From Escherichia phage vB_vPM_PD06, in the sequence record NC_052653.1: a stretch of DNA of 64,000 nt; one strand, written 5' to 3'. Shown here piece after piece: positions 9,377 through 12,432 of the stretch. The notes below the pieces were generated by a model. It saw only the letters and a program-made list of their open reading frames with translations. It was not told the origin of the DNA and did no database searches. Each line of letters opens with the position of its first letter. The first letter of the stretch is position 1. The translations under genes were made by a program, and so were the position numbers.

Positions 9377-9452
9377 TGGTCGTGGTAAACGGAGTCGAAC
9401 CGTTGTTTCTCGATTATCGGTCGAGTGTACTAACCATCTGTACGATACCACA
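9377..9452 (-). tRNA. tRNA-Ile (anticodon GAT)
   Basis: Hand-folded cloverleaf: acceptor TGTGGTA/TACCACG, anticodon loop CCGATAA (C at position 33 is unusual), T-loop TTCGACT, CCA encoded. Confidence 0.6.
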
Positions 9453-9457
9453 ATAAT

Positions 9458-9540
9458 TGGCAGCAAGGTGAGGAATCGAACCCCTTGATCTATGGTTTGG
9501 AGCCATATTGAGTACCATACTCTTTTAAATCTACCCAGCT
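9458..9540 (-). tRNA. Atypical tRNA, possibly Trp (CCA)
   Basis: T-arm GGGG-TTCGATT-CCTC and encoded CCA; hairpin TATGG-CTCCAAA-CCATA gives anticodon CCA; D region about 7 nt too long. Confidence 0.35.
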
Positions 9541-9598
9541 ATGAGTTCCTTGAGGTGTCAATGTAATTTAATCATTACACCAGAAGGGAGGTATTTAG

Positions 9599-9677
9599 TG
9601 GAGGCGGGAATCGGATTTGAACCGATGATCTCCAGCATATGAAACTGGCGAGGACGACCAGACTCCTCTATCCCGCG
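9599..9677 (-). tRNA. tRNA-Met (anticodon CAT; Met versus Ile2 not resolvable)
   Basis: Anticodon arm CCAGT-TTCATAT-GCTGG, T-arm ATCGG-TTCAAAT-CCGAT, 1-72 unpaired (C/C), CCA encoded. Confidence 0.7.
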
Positions 9678-9692
9678 CAATCTGTAATAATT

Positions 9693-9777
9693 TGGTAGCT
9701 AAGGTGAGACTCGAACTCACAATCCCTTGGGGCAATACGTTCTAAGCGTATCGTGTATACCATTCCACCACTTAGCC
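9693..9777 (-). tRNA. tRNA-Leu (anticodon TAG)
   Basis: Acceptor GGCTAAG/CTTAGCT, anticodon loop CTTAGAA, long variable arm, T-loop TTCGAGT, CCA encoded. Confidence 0.75.
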
Positions 9778-9854
9778 ATAATAAGTACACCACTGTAAGA
9801 AGCCTCAATGTGCTATTGACAGTTAACCAAGTCTACTCCTTGGATGGTGTTATT

Positions 9855-9929
9855 TGGTGCAGAGAGATGGTAACGATCCATCCTTTCTACCTTTTCAGGG
9901 TAGCACTAATCCGTCTCAGCTATCTCTGC
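9855..9929 (-). tRNA. tRNA-Phe (anticodon GAA)
   Basis: Acceptor GCAGAGA/TCTCTGC, anticodon arm CTACC-CTGAAAA-GGTAG, non-canonical T-loop ATCGTTA, CCA encoded. Confidence 0.65.
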
Positions 9930-9934
9930 AAATT

Positions 9935-10010
9935 TGGTCAGTGCGGCAGGACTCGAACCTGCGACCTGAAGCGTCCAAGGCTCCCACGCTACCAACTGCG
10001 CTACGCACTG
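9935..10010 (-). tRNA. tRNA-Pro (anticodon TGG)
   Basis: Acceptor CAGTGCG/CGCACTG, anticodon loop CTTGGAC, T-arm GCAGG-TTCGAGT-CCTGC, CCA encoded. Confidence 0.8.
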
Positions 10011-10017
10011 TAAATCT

Positions 10018-10092
10018 TGGCTGGAGATCTAGGAATCGAACCTAGTCATCACGACTTCAAAGGCCGTTGCCTTCCCACTAGGCTAATCTCCA
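10018..10092 (-). tRNA. tRNA-Gln (anticodon TTG)
   Basis: Acceptor TGGAGAT/ATCTCCA, anticodon arm ACGGC-CTTTGAA-GTCGT, T-arm CTAGG-TTCGATT-CCTAG, CCA encoded. Confidence 0.8.
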
Positions 10093-10523
10093 ATAAATTA
10101 CTTCAGTGTTACCACAAAGTGACGAACTGCTTTTCGTGCAGCAGAAGCCAGAGGCTTAGCATACTTAAGTTCATCTTTTTCCATTATAAATTCTCTTTTA
10201 AATGAAAATGCAGGACTTATTGGCATTGCCTGCGCAAGCCCTCAAGGGGAACATAGGTTTTTGGATATTTAACGACCAGGATAACCATAAACCCGTCATC
10301 ATTCACATTCAAGAGGTACACCATAAAACTGCCGGGGTCTTAAAACTATAATGATTCGCAAATCATTAATCAGACAGTTCGATGGCTCCTCGATTTTAGC
10401 TCACACTAAGGCAGTGAATCTCCAATAAACTAAAAAATCACTTAAAAAGAACCGCTAGAGTTTGAAGGAGAAAACCATGAGCGAAAAGAGAAATTTTCTC
10501 TAGCGATTCCATTTAAATAATCT

Positions 10524-10598
10524 TGGAGCGAGTAACAGGACTTGAACCTGCACCTGGAGGGTGGAAACCTCATATGCTACCATTAACACTATACCCGC
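10524..10598 (-). tRNA. tRNA-Gly (anticodon TCC)
   Basis: Acceptor GCGGGTA/TACTCGC, anticodon loop TTTCCAC, T-arm GCAGG-TTCAAGT-CCTGT, CCA encoded. Confidence 0.75.
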
Positions 10599-10653
10599 TT
10601 AACAATATTACTCTAACATACTATTAGCCCCTTTGTCAAGAGGCTTTTGATAC

Positions 10654-10983
10654 TTATTTTAAAATAGTAGATGCACCACGTCTGTTTAGATATGCAATAG
10701 TAAAGTCCAAATCACCTATTTCTTCAGGTTCCCACTGACCTTCTAAGCCATAACAAGAACAATGATATGCGTGTACTTCATAAAACAAAGATGTTTTCAT
10801 ATCATAAAAATAAACGTGAGATTCACCTTCATAATATGCACAATCATAAGTGGCAGAAAGAATTACAATGTTATCCTTATCTAACTCTACTTCATAATAT
10901 CTTTCAACATCTTCAATATCATCAAAACCATCGAAAACATTGATATTAAAATATTTCTCTAACTCTTTTTCTGTCACATACAC
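10654..10983 (-). CDS. Hypothetical protein embedded in tRNA array
   Basis: 109-aa ORF between tRNA-Gly and tRNA-Thr; Cys/Tyr-rich; no motif recognised. Confidence 0.5.
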   Translation of the reverse strand: MYVTEKELEKYFNINVFDGFDDIEDVERYYEVELDKDNIVILSATYDCAYYEGESHVYFYDMKTSLFYEVHAYHCSCYGLEGQWEPEEIGDLDFTIAYLNRRGASTILK

Positions 10984-10990
10984 TCCTTTA

Positions 10991-11065
10991 GAGTTAAAAT
11001 TGGTGCTCCCACAAGGACTCGAACCCTGATAAGTTGCTTACAAGGCAACCGTAATAGCCGTTATA
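10991..11065 (-). tRNA. tRNA-Thr (anticodon TGT)
   Basis: Acceptor GCTCCTA/TGGGAGC, anticodon arm GTTGC-CTTGTAA-GCAAC, T-loop TTCGAGT, CCA encoded. Confidence 0.8.
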
Positions 11066-11071
11066 CGATAG

Positions 11072-11148
11072 GAGCAATACTTGGACTCGGCAGGATTCGA
11101 TACCTGCAATTCCAGAAGCCTCTTGGCGACTGGGGGTTTACCTTAACT
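11072..11148 (-). tRNA. tRNA-like element, identity undetermined
   Basis: Acceptor GGACTTG/CGAGTCC pairs well; T-arm-like GCAGG-TATCGAAT-CCTGC with 8-nt loop; no canonical anticodon arm found by hand; CCA not encoded. Confidence 0.3.
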
Positions 11149-11155
11149 CTACAAG

Positions 11156-11240
11156 TCCATAATTCTGGCGATGGATCAAGGATTTGAACCTTGCTAGAAC
11201 TTTCGTTCACGGATTAACAGTCCGTCGCCCAACCACTAGG
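11156..11240 (-). tRNA. tRNA with anticodon GTT (Asn-type) and long extra arm
   Basis: Acceptor GATGGAT/ATCCATC, anticodon arm ACGGA-CTGTTAA-TCCGT, 15-nt variable region containing hairpin GAAC-GAAA-GTTC, T-loop TTCAAAT, CCA encoded. Confidence 0.55.
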
Positions 11241-11247
11241 CCAATCC

Positions 11248-11334
11248 ATCTTTAATTTGGTGCAGGTAGTTGGACTCGAACCAACGAAGCCCCGAAGGGC
11301 AAGAGATTTACAGTCTCCAGCAATTGCCGCTATG
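11248..11334 (-). tRNA. tRNA-Tyr (anticodon GTA)
   Basis: Acceptor GTAGGTA/TACCTGC, anticodon arm GGAGA-CTGTAAA-TCTCT, long variable arm, T-loop TTCGAGT, CCA encoded. Confidence 0.8.
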
Positions 11335-11339
11335 CGATA

Positions 11340-11415
11340 CCTACGTGTTTGGTACATCGTGAAGGATTCGAACCTTCGACCTTGGAGTTAAAAGCACCTT
11401 GCTCTACCAACTAAG
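11340..11415 (-). tRNA. tRNA-Lys (anticodon TTT)
   Basis: Perfect acceptor ACATCGT/ACGATGT, D-arm GCTT-AGTTGGTA-GAGC, anticodon loop CTTTTAA (stem has two mismatches), T-arm GAAGG-TTCGAAT-CCTTC, CCA encoded. Confidence 0.6.
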
Positions 11416-11559
11416 CTAACGATGTATAAATTATCTTTAAAATAGCCAGTGTTTGCGGCACTTAGCTATGAAGTATTGGGGTATCGGTAAAGTGGTTACC
11501 GCCACTTGCCGAAAGTTTACTCTGCTAAAGTAAGATTACAAGCTACATTAAAGATAACT

Positions 11560-11645
11560 TGGCGGTAGATGTAGGACTTGAACCTACACGCCGTTTCCGA
11601 CGACAGTTTAGCAAACTGTTGTGGCTACCATTTCACCAATCTACC
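11560..11645 (-). tRNA. tRNA-Ser (anticodon GCT)
   Basis: Acceptor GGTAGAT/ATCTACC, anticodon arm ACAGT-TTGCTAA-ACTGT, long variable arm, T-loop TTCAAGT, CCA encoded. Confidence 0.8.
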
Positions 11646-11653
11646 GTTCTTAA

Positions 11654-11806
11654 TTATTCAAAACAACCGGAATCTTTTTGTTCTGCTTTTACCATACGAA
11701 TATTTTTACCATCTTCAGATTGTTGAAGATTAGAATACTCATAAACAACTTTATTATCTACAATCTTAACTCCGGTAACAACCTGTCCAATAGTTTTATA
11801 ATTCAT
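11654..11806 (-). CDS. Small hypothetical protein
   Basis: About 50-aa ORF from ATG (MNYKTIG...) with AGGAG upstream; the longer track ORF would overlap tRNA-Ser. Confidence 0.35.
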   Translation of the reverse strand: MNYKTIGQVVTGVKIVDNKVVYEYSNLQQSEDGKNIRMVKAEQKDSGCFE

Positions 11807-11824
11807 AAAGCTCCTAGTTGAATT

Positions 11825-11914
11825 TGGAGGAAGATAATGGAGTCGAACCATCACCGTATCGCTACAATGGGCCAGGGTTCAAACCTGGTTGCGCACCGCT
11901 GCGCCCTACCTTCC
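11825..11914 (-). tRNA. tRNA-Ser (anticodon TGA)
   Basis: Acceptor GGAAGGT/ATCTTCC, anticodon arm CCAGG-TTTGAAC-CCTGG, long variable arm, T-arm GATGG-TTCGACT-CCATT, CCA encoded. Confidence 0.7.
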
Positions 11915-11975
11915 CGTTATCATACTTTAAATCTAACATAAAACTATCTTGCTTGTCAAGTAGTTTTTAAAACTT

Positions 11976-12057
11976 TTTGGTCGGGGTGACAGGATTCGAA
12001 CCTGCATACTCCAATTACTCGGTTAACGCCTGATTAGAAGTCAGGTGAGATACACCC
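11976..12057 (-). tRNA. Atypical tRNA-like gene, possibly Arg (TCT)
   Basis: Perfect acceptor CGGGGTG/CACCCCG, T-arm GCAGG-TTCGAAT-CCTGT, CCA encoded, hairpin CCTGA-CTTCTAA-TCAGG; no room for a normal D-arm. Confidence 0.4.
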
Positions 12058-12239
12058 CGTTTTCACAGTAACTATAACAAAAAACTAAGTGAATGTCAAG
12101 ATATTTTTACTAAAATTATTATTTAAATTGAAGCCTAGTTATGGAATCGAACCATATTTCGTATTTAGTTAGACAAAGCGGTCTAACATATTTTTCAGGC
12201 TTTGATGGCCTCGGAATTACCAAATACCCTACTAGGCGT

Positions 12240-12325
12240 TGGTGCAAGTGGAGGGATTCGAACCCTCAATCATTTAAGCGTTGCGTTTTAAGCACAATGT
12301 GTATCACCAATTCCACCACACTTGC
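12240..12325 (-). tRNA. tRNA-Leu (anticodon TAA)
   Basis: Perfect acceptor GCAAGTG/CACTTGC, anticodon arm TTGTG-CTTAAAA-CGCAA, long variable arm, T-arm GAGGG-TTCGAAT-CCCTC, CCA encoded. Confidence 0.75.
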
Positions 12326-12356
12326 ATATAGGAGATGCATAGCATCTCCTTTTAAA

Positions 12357-12432
12357 TGGTGGTTCCCCAGGGTTACAATCCCTGCCCTCGACACTTATGA
12401 GGTGTGCGCTCTCGTCAGTGAGCTATGGAACC
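12357..12432 (-). tRNA. tRNA with CAT anticodon (Met or Ile2), non-canonical T-loop
   Basis: D-arm GCTC-ACTGACGA-GAGC, anticodon loop CTCATAA, T-arm CAGGG-ATTGTAA-CCCTG, acceptor GGTTCCA/GGGAACC, CCA encoded. Confidence 0.65.

What the first reader, a model, noticed from the sequence alone, without database searches (positions are those of the whole stretch)
9377..12432. Dense minus-strand array of about 19 tRNA genes
Hand-folding gives tRNAs for Ile, Met/Ile2 (two CAT genes), Leu (TAG, TAA), Phe, Pro, Gln, Gly, Thr, Tyr, Lys, Ser (GCT, TGA) and an Asn-type GTT, plus several tRNA-like genes of uncertain identity. Most encode their own CCA. The array is interrupted by one protein gene and an unassigned 430-bp gap, and is closed by a terminator.
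Basis: seen in the sequence. Interest (0 to 1): 0.5.

Follow-up and report, generated by a model that had tools for sequence, protein, structure and literature searches.

The report
Phage tRNA array with odd members
This is the already-annotated cluster of 15 ordinary tRNA genes of a phi92-type E. coli phage. It also holds several unannotated tRNA-like RNAs, and two of them (arginine and tryptophan types) appear to fold in a way that is not the textbook cloverleaf.

Summary
The window is a phi92-type coliphage (Justusliebigvirus; 97-99% identical to SD2, muut and phi92). Positions 9377-12432 on the minus strand carry its known tRNA cluster. ARAGORN tRNAs, 13 of them also above Rfam's tRNA threshold, and all 15 encode CCA. 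Four sigma70-like promoters lie in or just upstream of the array, and a terminator closes it. GenBank records of relatives already annotate these 15-16 genes, so the array itself is ordinary.

The four "uncertain" genes are the interesting part.
- Two are conserved non-cloverleaf tRNAs, an 82-nt Arg(UCU) (almost phage-only) and an 83-nt Trp(CCA). In both, a covarying 3-bp helix between nt 10-13 and the variable region takes the D stem's place. Both keep the acceptor stem, anticodon loop, T arm, CCA and the E. coli synthetase identity marks.
- One is a homologue of T5 "RNA3": tRNA-shaped but with no anticodon loop.
- One is a 106-nt tRNA-like RNA with a UCA loop.

The "Asn" tRNA has a covarying long variable arm that recurs in many phages.

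The likely role is to keep phage translation going. The array covers AGA, ACA, CUA and AUA codons and could replace host Lys/Thr/Asn/Tyr tRNAs cut by defence nucleases. Function of the odd members is inferred, not shown.

The parts
12357..12432 (-). tRNA with anticodon CAU, probably tRNA-Ile2 (an AUA reader after lysidine modification). Its T loop is unusual (AUUGUAA). CCA is encoded.
   Evidence: ARAGORN calls it; Rfam does not. It is closest to T5 tRNA-Ile2(CAU), 56/78 identical.
12240..12325 (-). tRNA-Leu(UAA), with CCA encoded.
   Evidence: ARAGORN; Rfam 57.1 bits.
12132..12237 (-). 106-nt tRNA-like RNA. It has a 7-bp acceptor stem, a D arm, the loop CAUCAAA (a UCA triplet but A at position 33), a 39-nt variable region with a 7-bp hairpin, a T arm and discriminator U. 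No CCA is encoded.
   Evidence: ARAGORN finds it only in intron mode. Homologues occur in Erwinia phage Hena1 (annotated tRNA-sup(tca)) and Salmonella phage UTK0002, with covarying acceptor, D and anticodon stems. It is absent from phi92.
12071..12099 (-). Sigma70-like promoter (TTGACA, 17-nt spacer, TATAGT, with TG extension) 4-5 nt upstream of the Arg-like tRNA.
   Evidence: 11 of 12 consensus matches.
11978..12059 (-). Non-canonical 82-nt tRNA-Arg(UCU). Order of elements: acceptor stem, UAU, CUC, A, anticodon arm (loop CUUCUAA), 8-nt linker, GAG, a D-loop-like stretch UAAUUGGAGUAU, T arm, A73, CCA. CUC and GAG form a long-range helix that encloses the anticodon arm.
   Evidence: Rfam tRNA 40 bits. 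There are 23 distinct homologues. In alignment A1, 98.6% of cells pair; helix 11-13/40-42 is 100% paired and two of its three pairs show compensatory changes. The alternative local hairpin was rejected. The family is almost confined to phage DNA.
11930..11959 (-). Sigma70-like promoter upstream of tRNA-Ser(UGA).
   Evidence: 10 of 12 matches, TG extension.
11825..11914 (-). tRNA-Ser(UGA), 90 nt, discriminator U, CCA encoded.
   Evidence: ARAGORN. Rfam gives only a sub-threshold tRNA-Sec hit (35.3 bits against a cut-off of 47). The phi92 record flags it as pseudo.
11654..11806 (-). Small ORF of 50 aa, function unknown (phi92 gp111 homologue).
   Evidence: phrog_22441, E = 2.5e-39.
11560..11645 (-). 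tRNA-Ser(GCU), with CCA encoded.
   Evidence: 54.2 bits.
11426..11559 (-). Conserved structured RNA of about 130 nt. A long closing stem holds three hairpins. It is not tRNA-like and matches no Rfam family.
   Evidence: Homologues occur in 181 phage records, including T5-like phages (directly upstream of tRNA-Tyr), W70 and Phapecoctavirus. The consensus structure has a few compensatory pairs. Rfam has no hit.
11350..11425 (-). tRNA-Lys(UUU). Positions 36-41 read UAACUC, against the host's UAAUCA, and the anticodon stem has two mismatches.
   Evidence: (66 bits). Host sequence and the AriB cut site come from PMC12409363.
11258..11344 (-). tRNA-Tyr(GUA), with a long variable arm as in all bacterial tRNA-Tyr.
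11166..11250 (-). tRNA(GUU) 'Asn' with a long variable arm (4-bp stem plus GAAA loop). It has G73, encoded CCA, and positions 36-41 identical to host tRNA-Asn.
   Evidence: (56.5 bits). The variable-arm stem covaries across three phage families and IMG/VR contigs.
11082..11158 (-). tRNA-shaped RNA without an anticodon loop: the 'anticodon' hairpin is capped by a tetraloop, the T loop has 8 nt, and no CCA is encoded. It is a homologue of T5 RNA3.
   Evidence: Relaxed ARAGORN only. A shorter, covarying version is present in phi92 and muut. It has the same position (just after tRNA-Asn) and the same motifs as T5 RNA3, with global alignment z = 7.2.
11001..11075 (-). tRNA-Thr(UGU). Positions 36-41 read UAAGCA, as in T5 tRNA-Thr; the host has UAAUCA.
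   Evidence: PMC12409363.
10654..10983 (-). ORF of 109 aa, function unknown.
   Evidence: phrog_8792, E = 3.8e-44; no Pfam match.
10610..10639 (-). Sigma70-like promoter upstream of tRNA-Gly.
10524..10598 (-). tRNA-Gly(UCC).
10444..10510 (-). Terminator-like element: a 12-bp stem with a large loop, followed by UUUUU. It is the first part of the '430-bp gap'.
   Evidence: Sequence and fold. It is 84% conserved in KP13-26 and Tr1. The simple terminator scan did not call it.
10098..10226 (-). 42-codon ORF matching only the C-terminal third of RIII-type lysis-inhibition accessory proteins; probably a gene remnant.
   Evidence: phrog_1457, profile positions 55-86 of 86.
10018..10092 (-). tRNA-Gln(UUG).
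9935..10010 (-). tRNA-Pro(UGG).
9855..9929 (-). tRNA-Phe(GAA), with the unusual T loop AUCGUUA.
   Evidence: (49.2 bits).
9778..9854 (-). 77-nt spacer with a predicted multi-hairpin fold. It is found only in close relatives and remains unassigned.
9693..9777 (-). tRNA-Leu(UAG).
9599..9677 (-). Initiator-like tRNA(CAU), with a C1xC72 mismatch and U73, as in T5 tRNA-fMet.
   Evidence: 49 bits; 53/79 identical to T5 fMet.
9458..9540 (-). Non-canonical 83-nt tRNA-Trp(CCA). It keeps A1-U72, G73 and CCA. An 11-nt linker follows the acceptor stem, and its nt 10-12 pair with the variable region. The GG dinucleotide sits in the 3-nt loop of a 5-bp hairpin.
   Evidence: Rfam tRNA 22.9 bits, below threshold; ARAGORN only when relaxed. 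Seven distinct homologues. In alignment A2, helix 10-12/52-54 is 100% paired and one of its pairs shows four pair types.
9377..9452 (-). tRNA-Ile(GAU), the last gene of the array.
9245..9263 (-). Intrinsic terminator (AGCCTCC-TTATT-GGAGGCT followed by TTTTTGC) that closes the array. A conserved 113-nt trailer (9264-9376) precedes it.

Best explanation
This is the tRNA gene cluster of a phi92-type (Justusliebigvirus) virulent coliphage.

How it most likely works:
- Host RNA polymerase transcribes it from several strong sigma70-type promoters as a few polycistronic units that end at one or two terminators (inferred).
- Host RNase P and 3' processing enzymes cut out the RNAs (inferred).
- The products are 15 ordinary CCA-ending tRNAs and two structurally rewired but probably chargeable tRNAs, Arg(UCU) and Trp(CCA).
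- There are also by-product or accessory RNAs: a T5 RNA3-like tRNA mimic, a 106-nt UCA-loop tRNA-like RNA and a ~130-nt structured RNA.

The set gives the phage its own supply of decoders. It covers codons the AT-rich phage uses far more than E. coli does (AGA, ACA, CUA, AUA and other A-ending codons). It also covers exactly the tRNAs that host defence nucleases destroy: Lys-UUU, Thr-UGU and Asn-GUU (PARIS AriB), Lys (PrrC) and Tyr (retron-Eco7 PtuAB).

Shown here: the genes, their conservation, their covarying structures and the codon bias. Inferred: expression, processing, charging and any benefit against defence systems.
For: Gene calls come from two independent methods.

The region is 97-99% identical, with the same gene order, to phi92, muut, SD2 and other records that annotate the same tRNAs. 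The literature lists the same 15-16 genes for this genus (PMC12210895).

Four TTGACA / extended -10 promoters and a terminator lie on the tRNA strand.

Codon usage in 54 long ORFs of the window shows AGA 4.8x, ACA 3.4x, CUA 2.8x and AUA 2.3x the E. coli frequency. These are the three most enriched codons and the sixth, and each has a phage tRNA. Codons with a cognate phage tRNA are enriched overall (one-sided Mann-Whitney p = 0.03).

At the AriB cut site (positions 36-41), phage Lys and Thr differ from the host. Thr is identical there to T5 tRNA-Thr, and Lys shares T5's A41C change. T5 Lys+Thr+Asn together rescue cells from PARIS (PMC12409363). Phage tRNA-Tyr and tRNA-Lys defeat retron-Eco7 and PrrC (PMC11555353). 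In the window, Lys-Tyr-Asn-Thr are adjacent.

The Arg- and Trp-like RNAs keep every helix by compensation. They also keep CCA and the E. coli identity marks: C35, U36, A/G73 and an A after the GG for Arg; CCA anticodon, G73 and A1-U72 for Trp (identity rules from PMC9976931). The Arg-like gene is the only AGA decoder in the array.
Against: No expression, processing or charging data could be obtained here.

The codon argument is only moderate. Seven of 17 decoders read codons that are not enriched, and with wobble partners included the enrichment is not significant (p = 0.13). The E. coli codon table was taken from memory.

The window's tRNA-Asn has the host sequence at the AriB site. T5's own, experimentally tested tRNA-Asn is an ordinary 78-nt tRNA, so the PARIS rescue data do not cover the long-arm form.

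The Trp-like RNA scores below Rfam's tRNA threshold (22.9 bits), and its acceptor stem carries a recurrent 4:69 mismatch.

Whether a ribosome or EF-Tu accepts the rewired cores is unknown.
Confidence: 0.8

Rival explanations
1. The Arg(UCU)- and Trp(CCA)-like RNAs are not adaptors in translation. They are conserved tRNA mimics that act as decoys or competitive inhibitors for tRNA-targeting host nucleases or modification enzymes, or as processing signals, like the T5 and T4 'stable RNAs of unknown function'.
For: T5 and T4 tRNA clusters contain annotated tRNA-like stable RNAs with no known decoding role. One member of this array (11082-11158) is clearly such a mimic, because it has no anticodon loop. 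The PARIS authors themselves raise competition by over-expressed phage tRNAs as a possibility. Both RNAs lack a normal D arm, and standard tRNA finders reject or barely accept them.
Against: Both families conserve exactly what charging and decoding need: a 7-bp acceptor stem, CCA, the discriminator, a 7-nt anticodon loop with U33 and purine 37, and the synthetase identity nucleotides. The anticodon is fixed (UCU or CCU for Arg; CCA for Trp) while the stems drift. AGA is the codon most over-used by the phage, and the array has no other Arg tRNA.
Confidence: 0.3
2. The long-arm tRNA(GUU) is charged with serine by SerRS, which reads the long variable arm and ignores the anticodon. On this reading the phage deliberately inserts Ser at Asn codons.
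For: The tRNA has a long variable arm, a 3-bp D stem and G73. Among long-arm tRNAs, an A73-to-G73 change can switch leucine identity to serine (PMC9976931). Natural long-arm tRNAs with 'wrong' anticodons are mischarged in nematodes (PMC4300185, listed).
Against: The anticodon GUU plus G73 are the transferable AsnRS identity set. The arm is short, 3-4 bp plus a tetraloop. In other phages the same insertion sits in tRNAs with typical Asn-type UCC...GGA acceptor stems. A similar GNRA-capped arm is also found in a phage tRNA-Glu, which points to a structural add-on rather than serine identity. Proteome-wide Asn-to-Ser replacement would be costly.
Confidence: 0.1
3. The array serves codon-usage matching only. 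The differences from host tRNAs are neutral drift and have nothing to do with host defence nucleases.
For: The most over-used codons are covered. The classic explanation for T4 and rV5 tRNAs is codon compensation (PMC3606486). The Asn anticodon stem-loop is unchanged from the host.
Against: tRNAs for codons that are not enriched (Tyr, Asn-AAC, Phe-UUC, Trp, initiator) are kept. Lys and Thr carry changes precisely at positions 39-41, where AriB cuts, and share them with T5 tRNAs shown to resist or rescue.
Confidence: 0.3
4. The non-standard genes are decaying pseudogenes left by recombination and homing-endonuclease traffic in the array.
For: The array is mosaic. The 11076-11165 stretch is 98.8% identical to phAPEC8 but only about 81% over 42 nt to phi92. 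The 12126-12239 stretch is missing from phi92. An HNH endonuclease interrupts the array in SD2 and sits beside the Arg-like gene in other phages. The 430-bp gap holds an RIII gene fragment.
Against: Pseudogenes do not keep helices through compensatory changes across phage families. The Arg-like gene has its own near-consensus promoter.
Confidence: 0.05

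Closest known systems
tRNA cluster of phage phi92 and other Justusliebigvirus phages (muut, BME3, ESCO9 and others)
   Same: It has the same genes in the same order, at 97-99% nucleotide identity, with the same flanks: nicotinamide phosphoribosyltransferase upstream, and spanin and terminase downstream.
   Different: Small mosaic differences: a phAPEC8-type RNA3-like element, and the 106-nt UCA-loop RNA that phi92 lacks. The records examined or listed do not annotate the Arg-like, Trp-like, RNA3-like or UCA-loop genes, apart from stray overlapping calls.
Phage T5 tRNA region with its stable RNAs (RNA1, RNA2, RNA3, RNAI, RNAIII, RNAIV)
   Same: A long, multi-promoter array mixes tRNAs, small ORFs, homing endonucleases and tRNA-like stable RNAs of unknown function. 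The window's 11082-11158 RNA is a homologue of T5 RNA3 and sits in the same place, after tRNA-Asn. The Arg-like gene shares its acceptor stem and T arm with T5 tRNA-Arg. The Thr anticodon arm is the same.
   Different: T5's own tRNA-Arg, tRNA-Asn and tRNA-Trp are ordinary-length genes (75, 78 and 71 nt) without the inserted segments. No sequence similarity was found to T5 RNA1, RNAI, RNAIII, RNAIV or RNA2H; RNA2 shares only 18 nt of T arm.
Phage T4 tRNA cluster with rnaC, rnaD and segB
   Same: The concept is the same: a compact cluster of U34-type decoders (Gln, Leu, Gly, Pro, Ser, Thr, Ile-CAU, Arg-UCU) plus two stable RNAs and a homing endonuclease. All eight T4 specificities are represented here.
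   Different: There is no sequence similarity beyond one 32-nt match. The array here is twice as large.
D-arm-lacking mitochondrial tRNAs (nematodes, arachnids, metazoan mt-tRNA-Ser)
   Same: These are tRNAs that function without a normal local D arm. ARAGORN finds a candidate near the Arg-like gene, in a different register (12012-12073), only in its mitochondrial mode.
   Different: The phage RNAs are not truncated. They are longer than normal and keep a D-loop-like GG element, and they replace the D stem with a helix formed with the variable region. They occur in phages of bacteria, where no such tRNAs are known to me.
Long-variable-arm tRNAs with non-Leu/Ser/Tyr anticodons (nematode nev-tRNAs, bacterial allo-tRNAs)
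   Same: Like these, the GUU tRNA carries an extra variable-arm hairpin that its isotype normally lacks.
   Different: The arm is short and GNRA-capped. The AsnRS identity marks (GUU, G73) are intact, so ordinary Asn charging is expected rather than recoding. The acceptor and T branch has the normal 7/5 arrangement.

Membership tests
Canonical tRNA (Rfam RF00005, cloverleaf) | Covariance-model score at or above the curated cut-off (29 bits). | tested here: met
   Met for 13 of the 15 ARAGORN genes and for the Arg-like gene (40-66 bits). Not met for Ser-UGA, the CAU gene at 12357-12432, the Trp-like RNA (22.9 bits), the RNA3-like RNA and the UCA-loop RNA.
Canonical tRNA (Rfam RF00005, cloverleaf) | A local D arm (stem 10-13/22-25 closing a GG-containing loop) between the acceptor stem and the anticodon arm. 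| tested here: not met
   This row concerns the Arg-like and Trp-like genes. Arg-like has only 7 nt between the acceptor and anticodon stems, and nt 11-13 pair with nt 40-42 beyond the anticodon arm. Trp-like has nt 10-12 pairing with the variable region, and its GG sits in a 3-nt hairpin loop. The 15 standard genes do meet this feature.
Canonical tRNA (Rfam RF00005, cloverleaf) | A 7-nt anticodon loop with U33 and a purine at 37, a T arm with a UUCRA-type loop, and a 7-bp acceptor stem with a 3' CCA. | tested here: met
   Met for the 15 standard genes and for the Arg- and Trp-like genes. Two standard genes (Phe and the Ile2-like gene) have atypical T loops. Not met for the RNA3-like RNA (tetraloop, 8-nt T loop, no CCA) or the UCA-loop RNA (A33, no CCA).
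Canonical tRNA (Rfam RF00005, cloverleaf) | Aminoacylation and use on the ribosome. | not testable with these tools
   Only the presence of identity nucleotides could be checked.
Justusliebigvirus (phi92-type) tRNA cluster | Near-identical sequence, the same gene order and the same flanking genes. | tested here: met
   Identity is 97.4-99.4% over 9200-12720, and 53 records cover at least 80% of the region. Annotated orders match.
T5 RNA3 (putative tRNA-like stable RNA) | A ~75-nt tRNA-shaped RNA directly 3' of tRNA-Asn, with the motif UAGAGUUAAG(G)UAAACC, a closed hairpin in place of the anticodon arm and the 8-nt loop YAUCGAAU. | tested here: met
   The position and both motifs are shared. 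The global alignment z-score is 7.2 against 500 shuffles. Blastn with 7-nt words did not report the match.
Class II (long variable arm) tRNA | A base-paired extra arm between the anticodon arm and the T arm. | tested here: met
   In the GUU tRNA, four variable-arm pairs are predicted and three show compensatory changes in 13 sequences (45-55 UA7/AU6; 47-54 with five pair types).
tRNA-Asn (charged by AsnRS) | Anticodon GUU plus discriminator G73, the transferable identity set in E. coli. | tested here: met
   Both are present and invariant in all long-arm homologues. The identity rule is from PMC9976931. Charging itself is not testable here.
Selenocysteine tRNA (Rfam RF01852) | Score at or above 47 bits, a UCA anticodon and an 8/5 acceptor/T arrangement. 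| tested here: not met
   The only hit is Ser-UGA at 35.3 bits, and its anticodon is UGA, not UCA. The UCA-loop RNA has a 7-bp acceptor stem and A33.
UGA suppressor tRNA | A canonical anticodon loop with a UCA anticodon, and a genome that needs UGA read-through or recoding. | tested here: inconclusive
   The Hena1 homologue is annotated tRNA-sup(tca). However, the loop has A33 in all three sequences. The phage uses TGA as an ordinary stop in 8 of 54 long ORFs.

The most novel reading that the evidence does not exclude
The 82-nt Arg(UCU) and 83-nt Trp(CCA) RNAs are fully functional, aminoacylated decoders whose core is wired differently from every described cytosolic tRNA. The D stem is made from nt 10-13 and the variable region, and the GG 'elbow' element is moved. 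This fold is a phage-specific solution, possibly selected because host tRNA-targeting defence nucleases or modification enzymes no longer recognise it. The short GNRA-capped variable arms added to phage tRNA-Asn (and tRNA-Glu) would then be a milder form of the same strategy.
Probability: 0.35. Interest if true: 0.8.

Novelty: new variant of a known kind. Interest (0 to 1): 0.45.

Why it matters
The array itself adds nothing new. It is the annotated tRNA cluster of a well-sampled phage genus.

What could matter is that standard annotation misses about a fifth of its RNA genes, and that two of the missed genes look like working tRNAs with a non-cloverleaf core. If they are charged and used, they would relax what is assumed to be required of a bacterial-type tRNA by synthetases, EF-Tu and the ribosome. 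They would also give ready-made orthogonal-looking scaffolds. And they would extend the current picture of phage tRNAs as counter-defence tools from point changes in the anticodon loop to changes of overall architecture.

Two further points follow. Phage tRNA counts in the literature are underestimates. And the decades-old 'stable RNAs of unknown function' of T5 have conserved relatives in unrelated phage families.

Tried and rejected
- **Homology to the T4 tRNA cluster, including rnaC and rnaD.** Only one 32-nt match was found, even though many Tequatrovirus records appeared in the first megablast.
- **Rfam at permissive thresholds over 9000-12900.** No family explains the gaps. The weak RyhB (27.6 bits against 55), rimP-leader and plastid UTR hits are noise.
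- **A local variable-arm hairpin in the Arg-like RNA** (the minimum-free-energy fold). Rejected: 82% paired, no compensatory change and 15 broken cells, against 100% pairing for the long-range helix.
- **ARAGORN's 'tRNA-Asn with intron' reading of 12132-12237**. Rejected in favour of a UCA-loop tRNA-like RNA once homologues were aligned.
- **Selenocysteine tRNA for Ser-UGA or for the UCA-loop RNA.** Rejected.
- **tmRNA.** None found.
- **Using the PARIS rescue experiments as direct evidence for the long-arm tRNA-Asn.** Rejected, because T5's own tRNA-Asn turned out to be an ordinary 78-nt tRNA.
- **Pectobacterium phage POP17 as an eighth Trp-like sequence.** Left out: the record is unverified and the alignment is ambiguous.
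- **IMG/VR scans for more homologues of the ~130-nt structured RNA and the UCA-loop RNA.** They gave almost nothing new.
- **Nine literature searches.** None found a description of long-arm phage tRNA-Asn, the rewired Arg/Trp tRNAs, or T5 RNA3 relatives. The older T5 literature is not in the library, so prior description cannot be excluded.

Full report
**What is there.** ARAGORN at default settings finds 15 tRNA genes in the 64-kb window. All are on the minus strand and exactly fill 9377-12432. Rfam's tRNA covariance model passes its curated threshold for 13 of them and for one extra gene at 11981-12059. Ser-UGA (11825-11914) and the CAU gene at 12357-12432 are ARAGORN-only. All 15 encode their 3' CCA.

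With thresholds relaxed, ARAGORN adds a Trp-CCA-like gene (9458-9535), a 'Leu-CAA' call (11081-11159) and an intron-type call (12132-12237).

**Where it comes from.** The region is 97.4-99.4% identical over its full length to Escherichia phages SD2, muut, PD114 and phi92, and to about 50 other Justusliebigvirus genomes. The muut and phi92 records annotate the same 15 tRNAs in the same order between a nicotinamide phosphoribosyltransferase gene and the spanin/terminase genes. A 2025 paper lists the same 16 tRNAs for phage BME3 and says 15 are conserved in the genus (PMC12210895). As a tRNA array, the finding is already known.

**Layout.** Four promoter-like sites on the tRNA strand match TTGACA plus an extended -10:
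- 12766-12737, ahead of an 88-codon ORF that precedes the array;
- 12099-12071;
- 11959-11930;
- 10639-10610.

An intrinsic terminator at 9263-9245 closes the array.

A conserved 12-bp hairpin followed by five U sits directly after tRNA-Gly (10444-10510). It probably ends a short Gly unit. It is 84% conserved in Klebsiella phage KP13-26 and Citrobacter phage Tr1.

The array contains two conserved small ORFs of unknown function: 10654-10983 (phrog_8792) and 11654-11806 (phrog_22441). The '430-bp gap' ends in a 42-codon ORF that matches only the last third of RIII-type proteins, probably a gene remnant.

**The two CAU genes.** The gene at 9599-9677 has a C1xC72 mismatch and U73. It is closest to T5's annotated initiator tRNA (53/79), which shares those features. 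The gene at 12357-12432 is closest to T5 tRNA-Ile2(CAU) (56/78). The identity assignment rests on similarity only.

**The Arg-like gene (11978-12059).** This 82-nt RNA has its own near-consensus promoter. It has a 7-bp acceptor stem, A73, CCA, a normal anticodon arm (loop CUUCUAA) and a normal T arm. Only seven nucleotides (UAUCUCA) sit where the D arm should be, and 23 sit where the variable loop should be.

It is not a one-off:
- Full-length relatives occur in Felixounavirus phages, Klebsiella phages Roth37 and K54_rec1, and two Vibrio phages. 208 phage records cover at least 80% of it.
- A motif scan of IMG/VR raised the set to 23 distinct sequences, all but two (one cut short by the end of its locus, one with a 5-nt insertion) exactly 82 nt.
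- A slightly extended form of that motif occurs in only 2 of 185,579 bacterial and archaeal species genomes, both on metagenome-bin contigs that carry tRNA genes nearby.

On a gapless 21-sequence alignment, 98.6% of cells pair and 16 of 20 pairs show changes on both sides. No shuffle out of 500 reaches these values, and slid controls collapse to 37-47% paired.

The key point is a 3-bp helix between columns 11-13 (CUC) and 40-42 (GAG). It encloses the anticodon arm. It is paired in all 63 cells and changes by compensation: U-A to A-U or G-C at one pair, C-G to U-A at another. The thermodynamically preferred local hairpin is paired in only 82% of cells and has no compensatory change.

After the GAG strand comes an invariant UAAUUGGAG. 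This looks like a D loop (GG, then A) placed as a linker to the T arm.

The features E. coli ArgRS reads are all present: C35, U36, A/G73 and above all A20 next to the GG (identity rules from PMC9976931). My reading is inference. The D stem is still formed and can still stack on the anticodon stem, but the chain runs through it in a different order.

**The Trp-like gene (9458-9540).** This 83-nt RNA has A1-U72, G73, CCA and the loop CUCCAAA, which is the E. coli TrpRS identity set. It scores only 22.9 bits with Rfam. Seven distinct homologues were found in KP13-26, Tr1, Hafnia phage SarahDanielle and IMG/VR contigs.

They share these elements in order:
- an 11-nt A/U-rich linker after the acceptor stem;
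- a covarying 5-bp hairpin with a 3-nt YGG loop;
- the anticodon arm;
- a 5-nt variable region;
- the T arm.

Nucleotides 10-12 of the linker pair with three nucleotides of the variable region in all 21 cells. One pair takes four different forms (AU, GC, CG, UA) and another takes two. This is the same principle as in the Arg-like RNA: a D-stem-like helix built with the variable region. Canonical phage tRNA-Trp genes found by the same scan do not have it.

**The 'Asn' gene (11166-11250).** It is a GUU tRNA with G73 and an anticodon arm whose positions 36-41 equal those quoted for E. coli tRNA-Asn. It also carries a 4-bp variable-arm stem capped by GAAA.

The same architecture is found in several groups:
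- Phapecoctavirus, Tr1, KP13-26 and Seunavirus;
- three genera of T5-like phages;
- about a quarter of the phage GUU tRNAs caught by one IMG/VR scan, including ones with typical Asn-type acceptor stems.

The arm covaries: 45-55 is UA7/AU6, and 47-54 shows five pair types. KP13-26's 89-nt tRNA-Glu carries a similar GNRA-capped arm.

Because GUU plus G73 is the transferable AsnRS identity and the arm is short, I expect normal Asn charging. Serine mischarging is a minor rival.

T5 itself has an ordinary 78-nt tRNA-Asn. The published PARIS rescue with T5 tRNAs therefore does not test the long-arm form.

**The other extra RNAs.**
- *11082-11158.* It folds as a cloverleaf whose 'anticodon' arm is a closed tetraloop hairpin and whose T loop has 8 nt. 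phi92 and muut carry a shorter version with compensating changes. It shares position (right after tRNA-Asn), motifs and overall alignment (z = 7.2) with T5 RNA3, which is annotated 'putative tRNA-like RNA'.
- *12132-12237.* It has acceptor, D and T arms and a huge variable region, but its loop CAUCAAA has A at position 33. Its homologue in Erwinia phage Hena1 is annotated as a UGA suppressor. A further homologue is in an N4-like Salmonella phage, and phi92 lacks the gene. The phage uses TGA as a normal stop (8 of 54 long ORFs), so I leave its role open.
- *11426-11559.* A ~130-nt RNA with a long closing stem and three hairpins. It is conserved in 181 phage records, including T5-like phages where it lies just upstream of tRNA-Tyr. 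Covariation is modest and there is no Rfam match.
- *9778-9854.* Conserved only in close relatives and unassigned.

**What the array is for.** The window's 54 long ORFs (37% G+C) use AGA 4.8 times, ACA 3.4 times, CUA 2.8 times and AUA 2.3 times as often as E. coli. These are the first, second, third and sixth most enriched codons, and each has a phage decoder; for AGA it is the rewired Arg tRNA. Overall enrichment of cognate codons is modest (p = 0.03; p = 0.13 with wobble partners). The E. coli table is from memory.

A second role is suggested by recent work:
- PARIS AriB cuts host tRNA-Lys(UUU), Thr(UGU) and Asn(GUU) between positions 40 and 41, and T5's versions of the three rescue cells (PMC12409363).
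- Phage tRNA-Tyr and tRNA-Lys overcome retron-Eco7 and PrrC (PMC11555353).

In the window, Lys, Tyr, Asn and Thr are neighbours. Lys reads UAACUC and Thr reads UAAGCA at positions 36-41, against the host's UAAUCA. Thr equals T5's, and Lys shares T5's A41C change.

I therefore favour a combined supply-and-replacement role. The architectural oddities may be a further way to escape tRNA-targeting enzymes. That last step is speculation.

**Novelty and limits.** The array is known. tRNA-like stable RNAs in phage tRNA clusters are also known in kind, from T5 and T4.

Nine literature searches found no description of the following:
- the long-range D-stem replacement in the Arg and Trp families;
- the widespread long-arm tRNA-Asn;
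- the relatives of T5 RNA3.

Most GenBank records leave these genes unannotated or call them 'tRNA-OTHER'. The older T5 literature is not searchable here, so prior description cannot be ruled out.

Nothing here shows expression, charging or use in translation. The structures rest on covariation in 21 and 7 sequences respectively.

Noticed in passing
window 11166-11250 (-); L003:3001-3086, L008:1495-1577, L009:1495-1579, L010:1488-1572; IMG/VR loci such as L017, L080, L011: tRNA(GUU) genes with an added, covarying 3-4-bp GNRA-capped variable arm recur in at least three phage families and many IMG/VR contigs. T5 itself has an ordinary tRNA-Asn. I found no paper that mentions this.
   Followed up: yes
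L005:3805-3893 (Klebsiella phage KP13-26): An 89-nt tRNA-Glu(UUC) carries the same kind of short GAAA-capped variable arm. Such insertions may be a general phage tRNA trait.
   Followed up: no
window 11426-11559 (-); L008:612-720, L288:239-349, L287:249-368: A conserved ~130-nt structured RNA (long closing stem, three hairpins) is shared by phi92-like, phAPEC8-like, rV5-like and T5-like phages. In T5-like phages it lies directly upstream of the strongly expressed tRNA-Tyr. It has no Rfam family and is unannotated in all but a few listed records.
   Followed up: partly
window 12132-12237 (-); L256:1496-1603; L257:601-709: A 106-nt tRNA-like RNA has an invariant CAUCAAA loop (a UCA triplet, A33). 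Its homologue in Erwinia phage Hena1 is annotated as a UGA suppressor. It is present in an N4-like Salmonella phage and deleted in phi92.
   Followed up: partly
window 9855-9929 and 12357-12432 (-): The Phe and Ile2-like tRNAs have T loops AUCGUUA and AUUGUAA. Position 54 is A and position 58 is U, the reverse of the universal T54-A58 pair. This probably explains the low or absent Rfam scores.
   Followed up: no
window 11076-11165 and 12126-12239; H1 (phage SD2), L133, L134: The array is mosaic. One segment is 98.8% identical to Phapecoctavirus phAPEC8 but diverged from phi92, and another is missing from phi92. HNH homing endonuclease genes interrupt the array in SD2 and sit next to the Arg-like gene in phages P54 and Roth37. 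This suggests endonuclease-driven exchange of tRNA modules.
   Followed up: partly
window 10098-10226 (-): A 42-codon ORF matches only profile positions 55-86 of RIII-type lysis-inhibition accessory proteins. It is likely a truncated gene, and phi92 annotates it as rIII.
   Followed up: partly
window 10444-10510 (-): A conserved 12-bp hairpin with a large loop followed by UUUUU lies directly after tRNA-Gly. It is probably an internal terminator, which would make Gly a separate promoter-to-terminator unit.
   Followed up: partly
window 9264-9376 (-): A 113-nt trailer between tRNA-Ile and the terminator is 87-94% conserved in phAPEC8, Tr1 and KP13-26. It could be a 3'-derived small RNA. The only Rfam hit is a sub-threshold RyhB match.
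   Followed up: no
window 13180-14913 (-) and 7869-8535 (-): The flanking genes are a 577-aa nicotinamide/nicotinate phosphoribosyltransferase upstream of the array and an overlapping spanin pair (lipoprotein signal MRKHLLALCLVLALMMTGC) downstream.
   Followed up: no
hits H9-H12 (MG065639, MG065645, MG065656, MG065689): Four records named 'Campylobacter phage' with host C. jejuni are 97% identical to this E. coli phage region. They are probably mislabelled or contaminant genomes.
   Followed up: no
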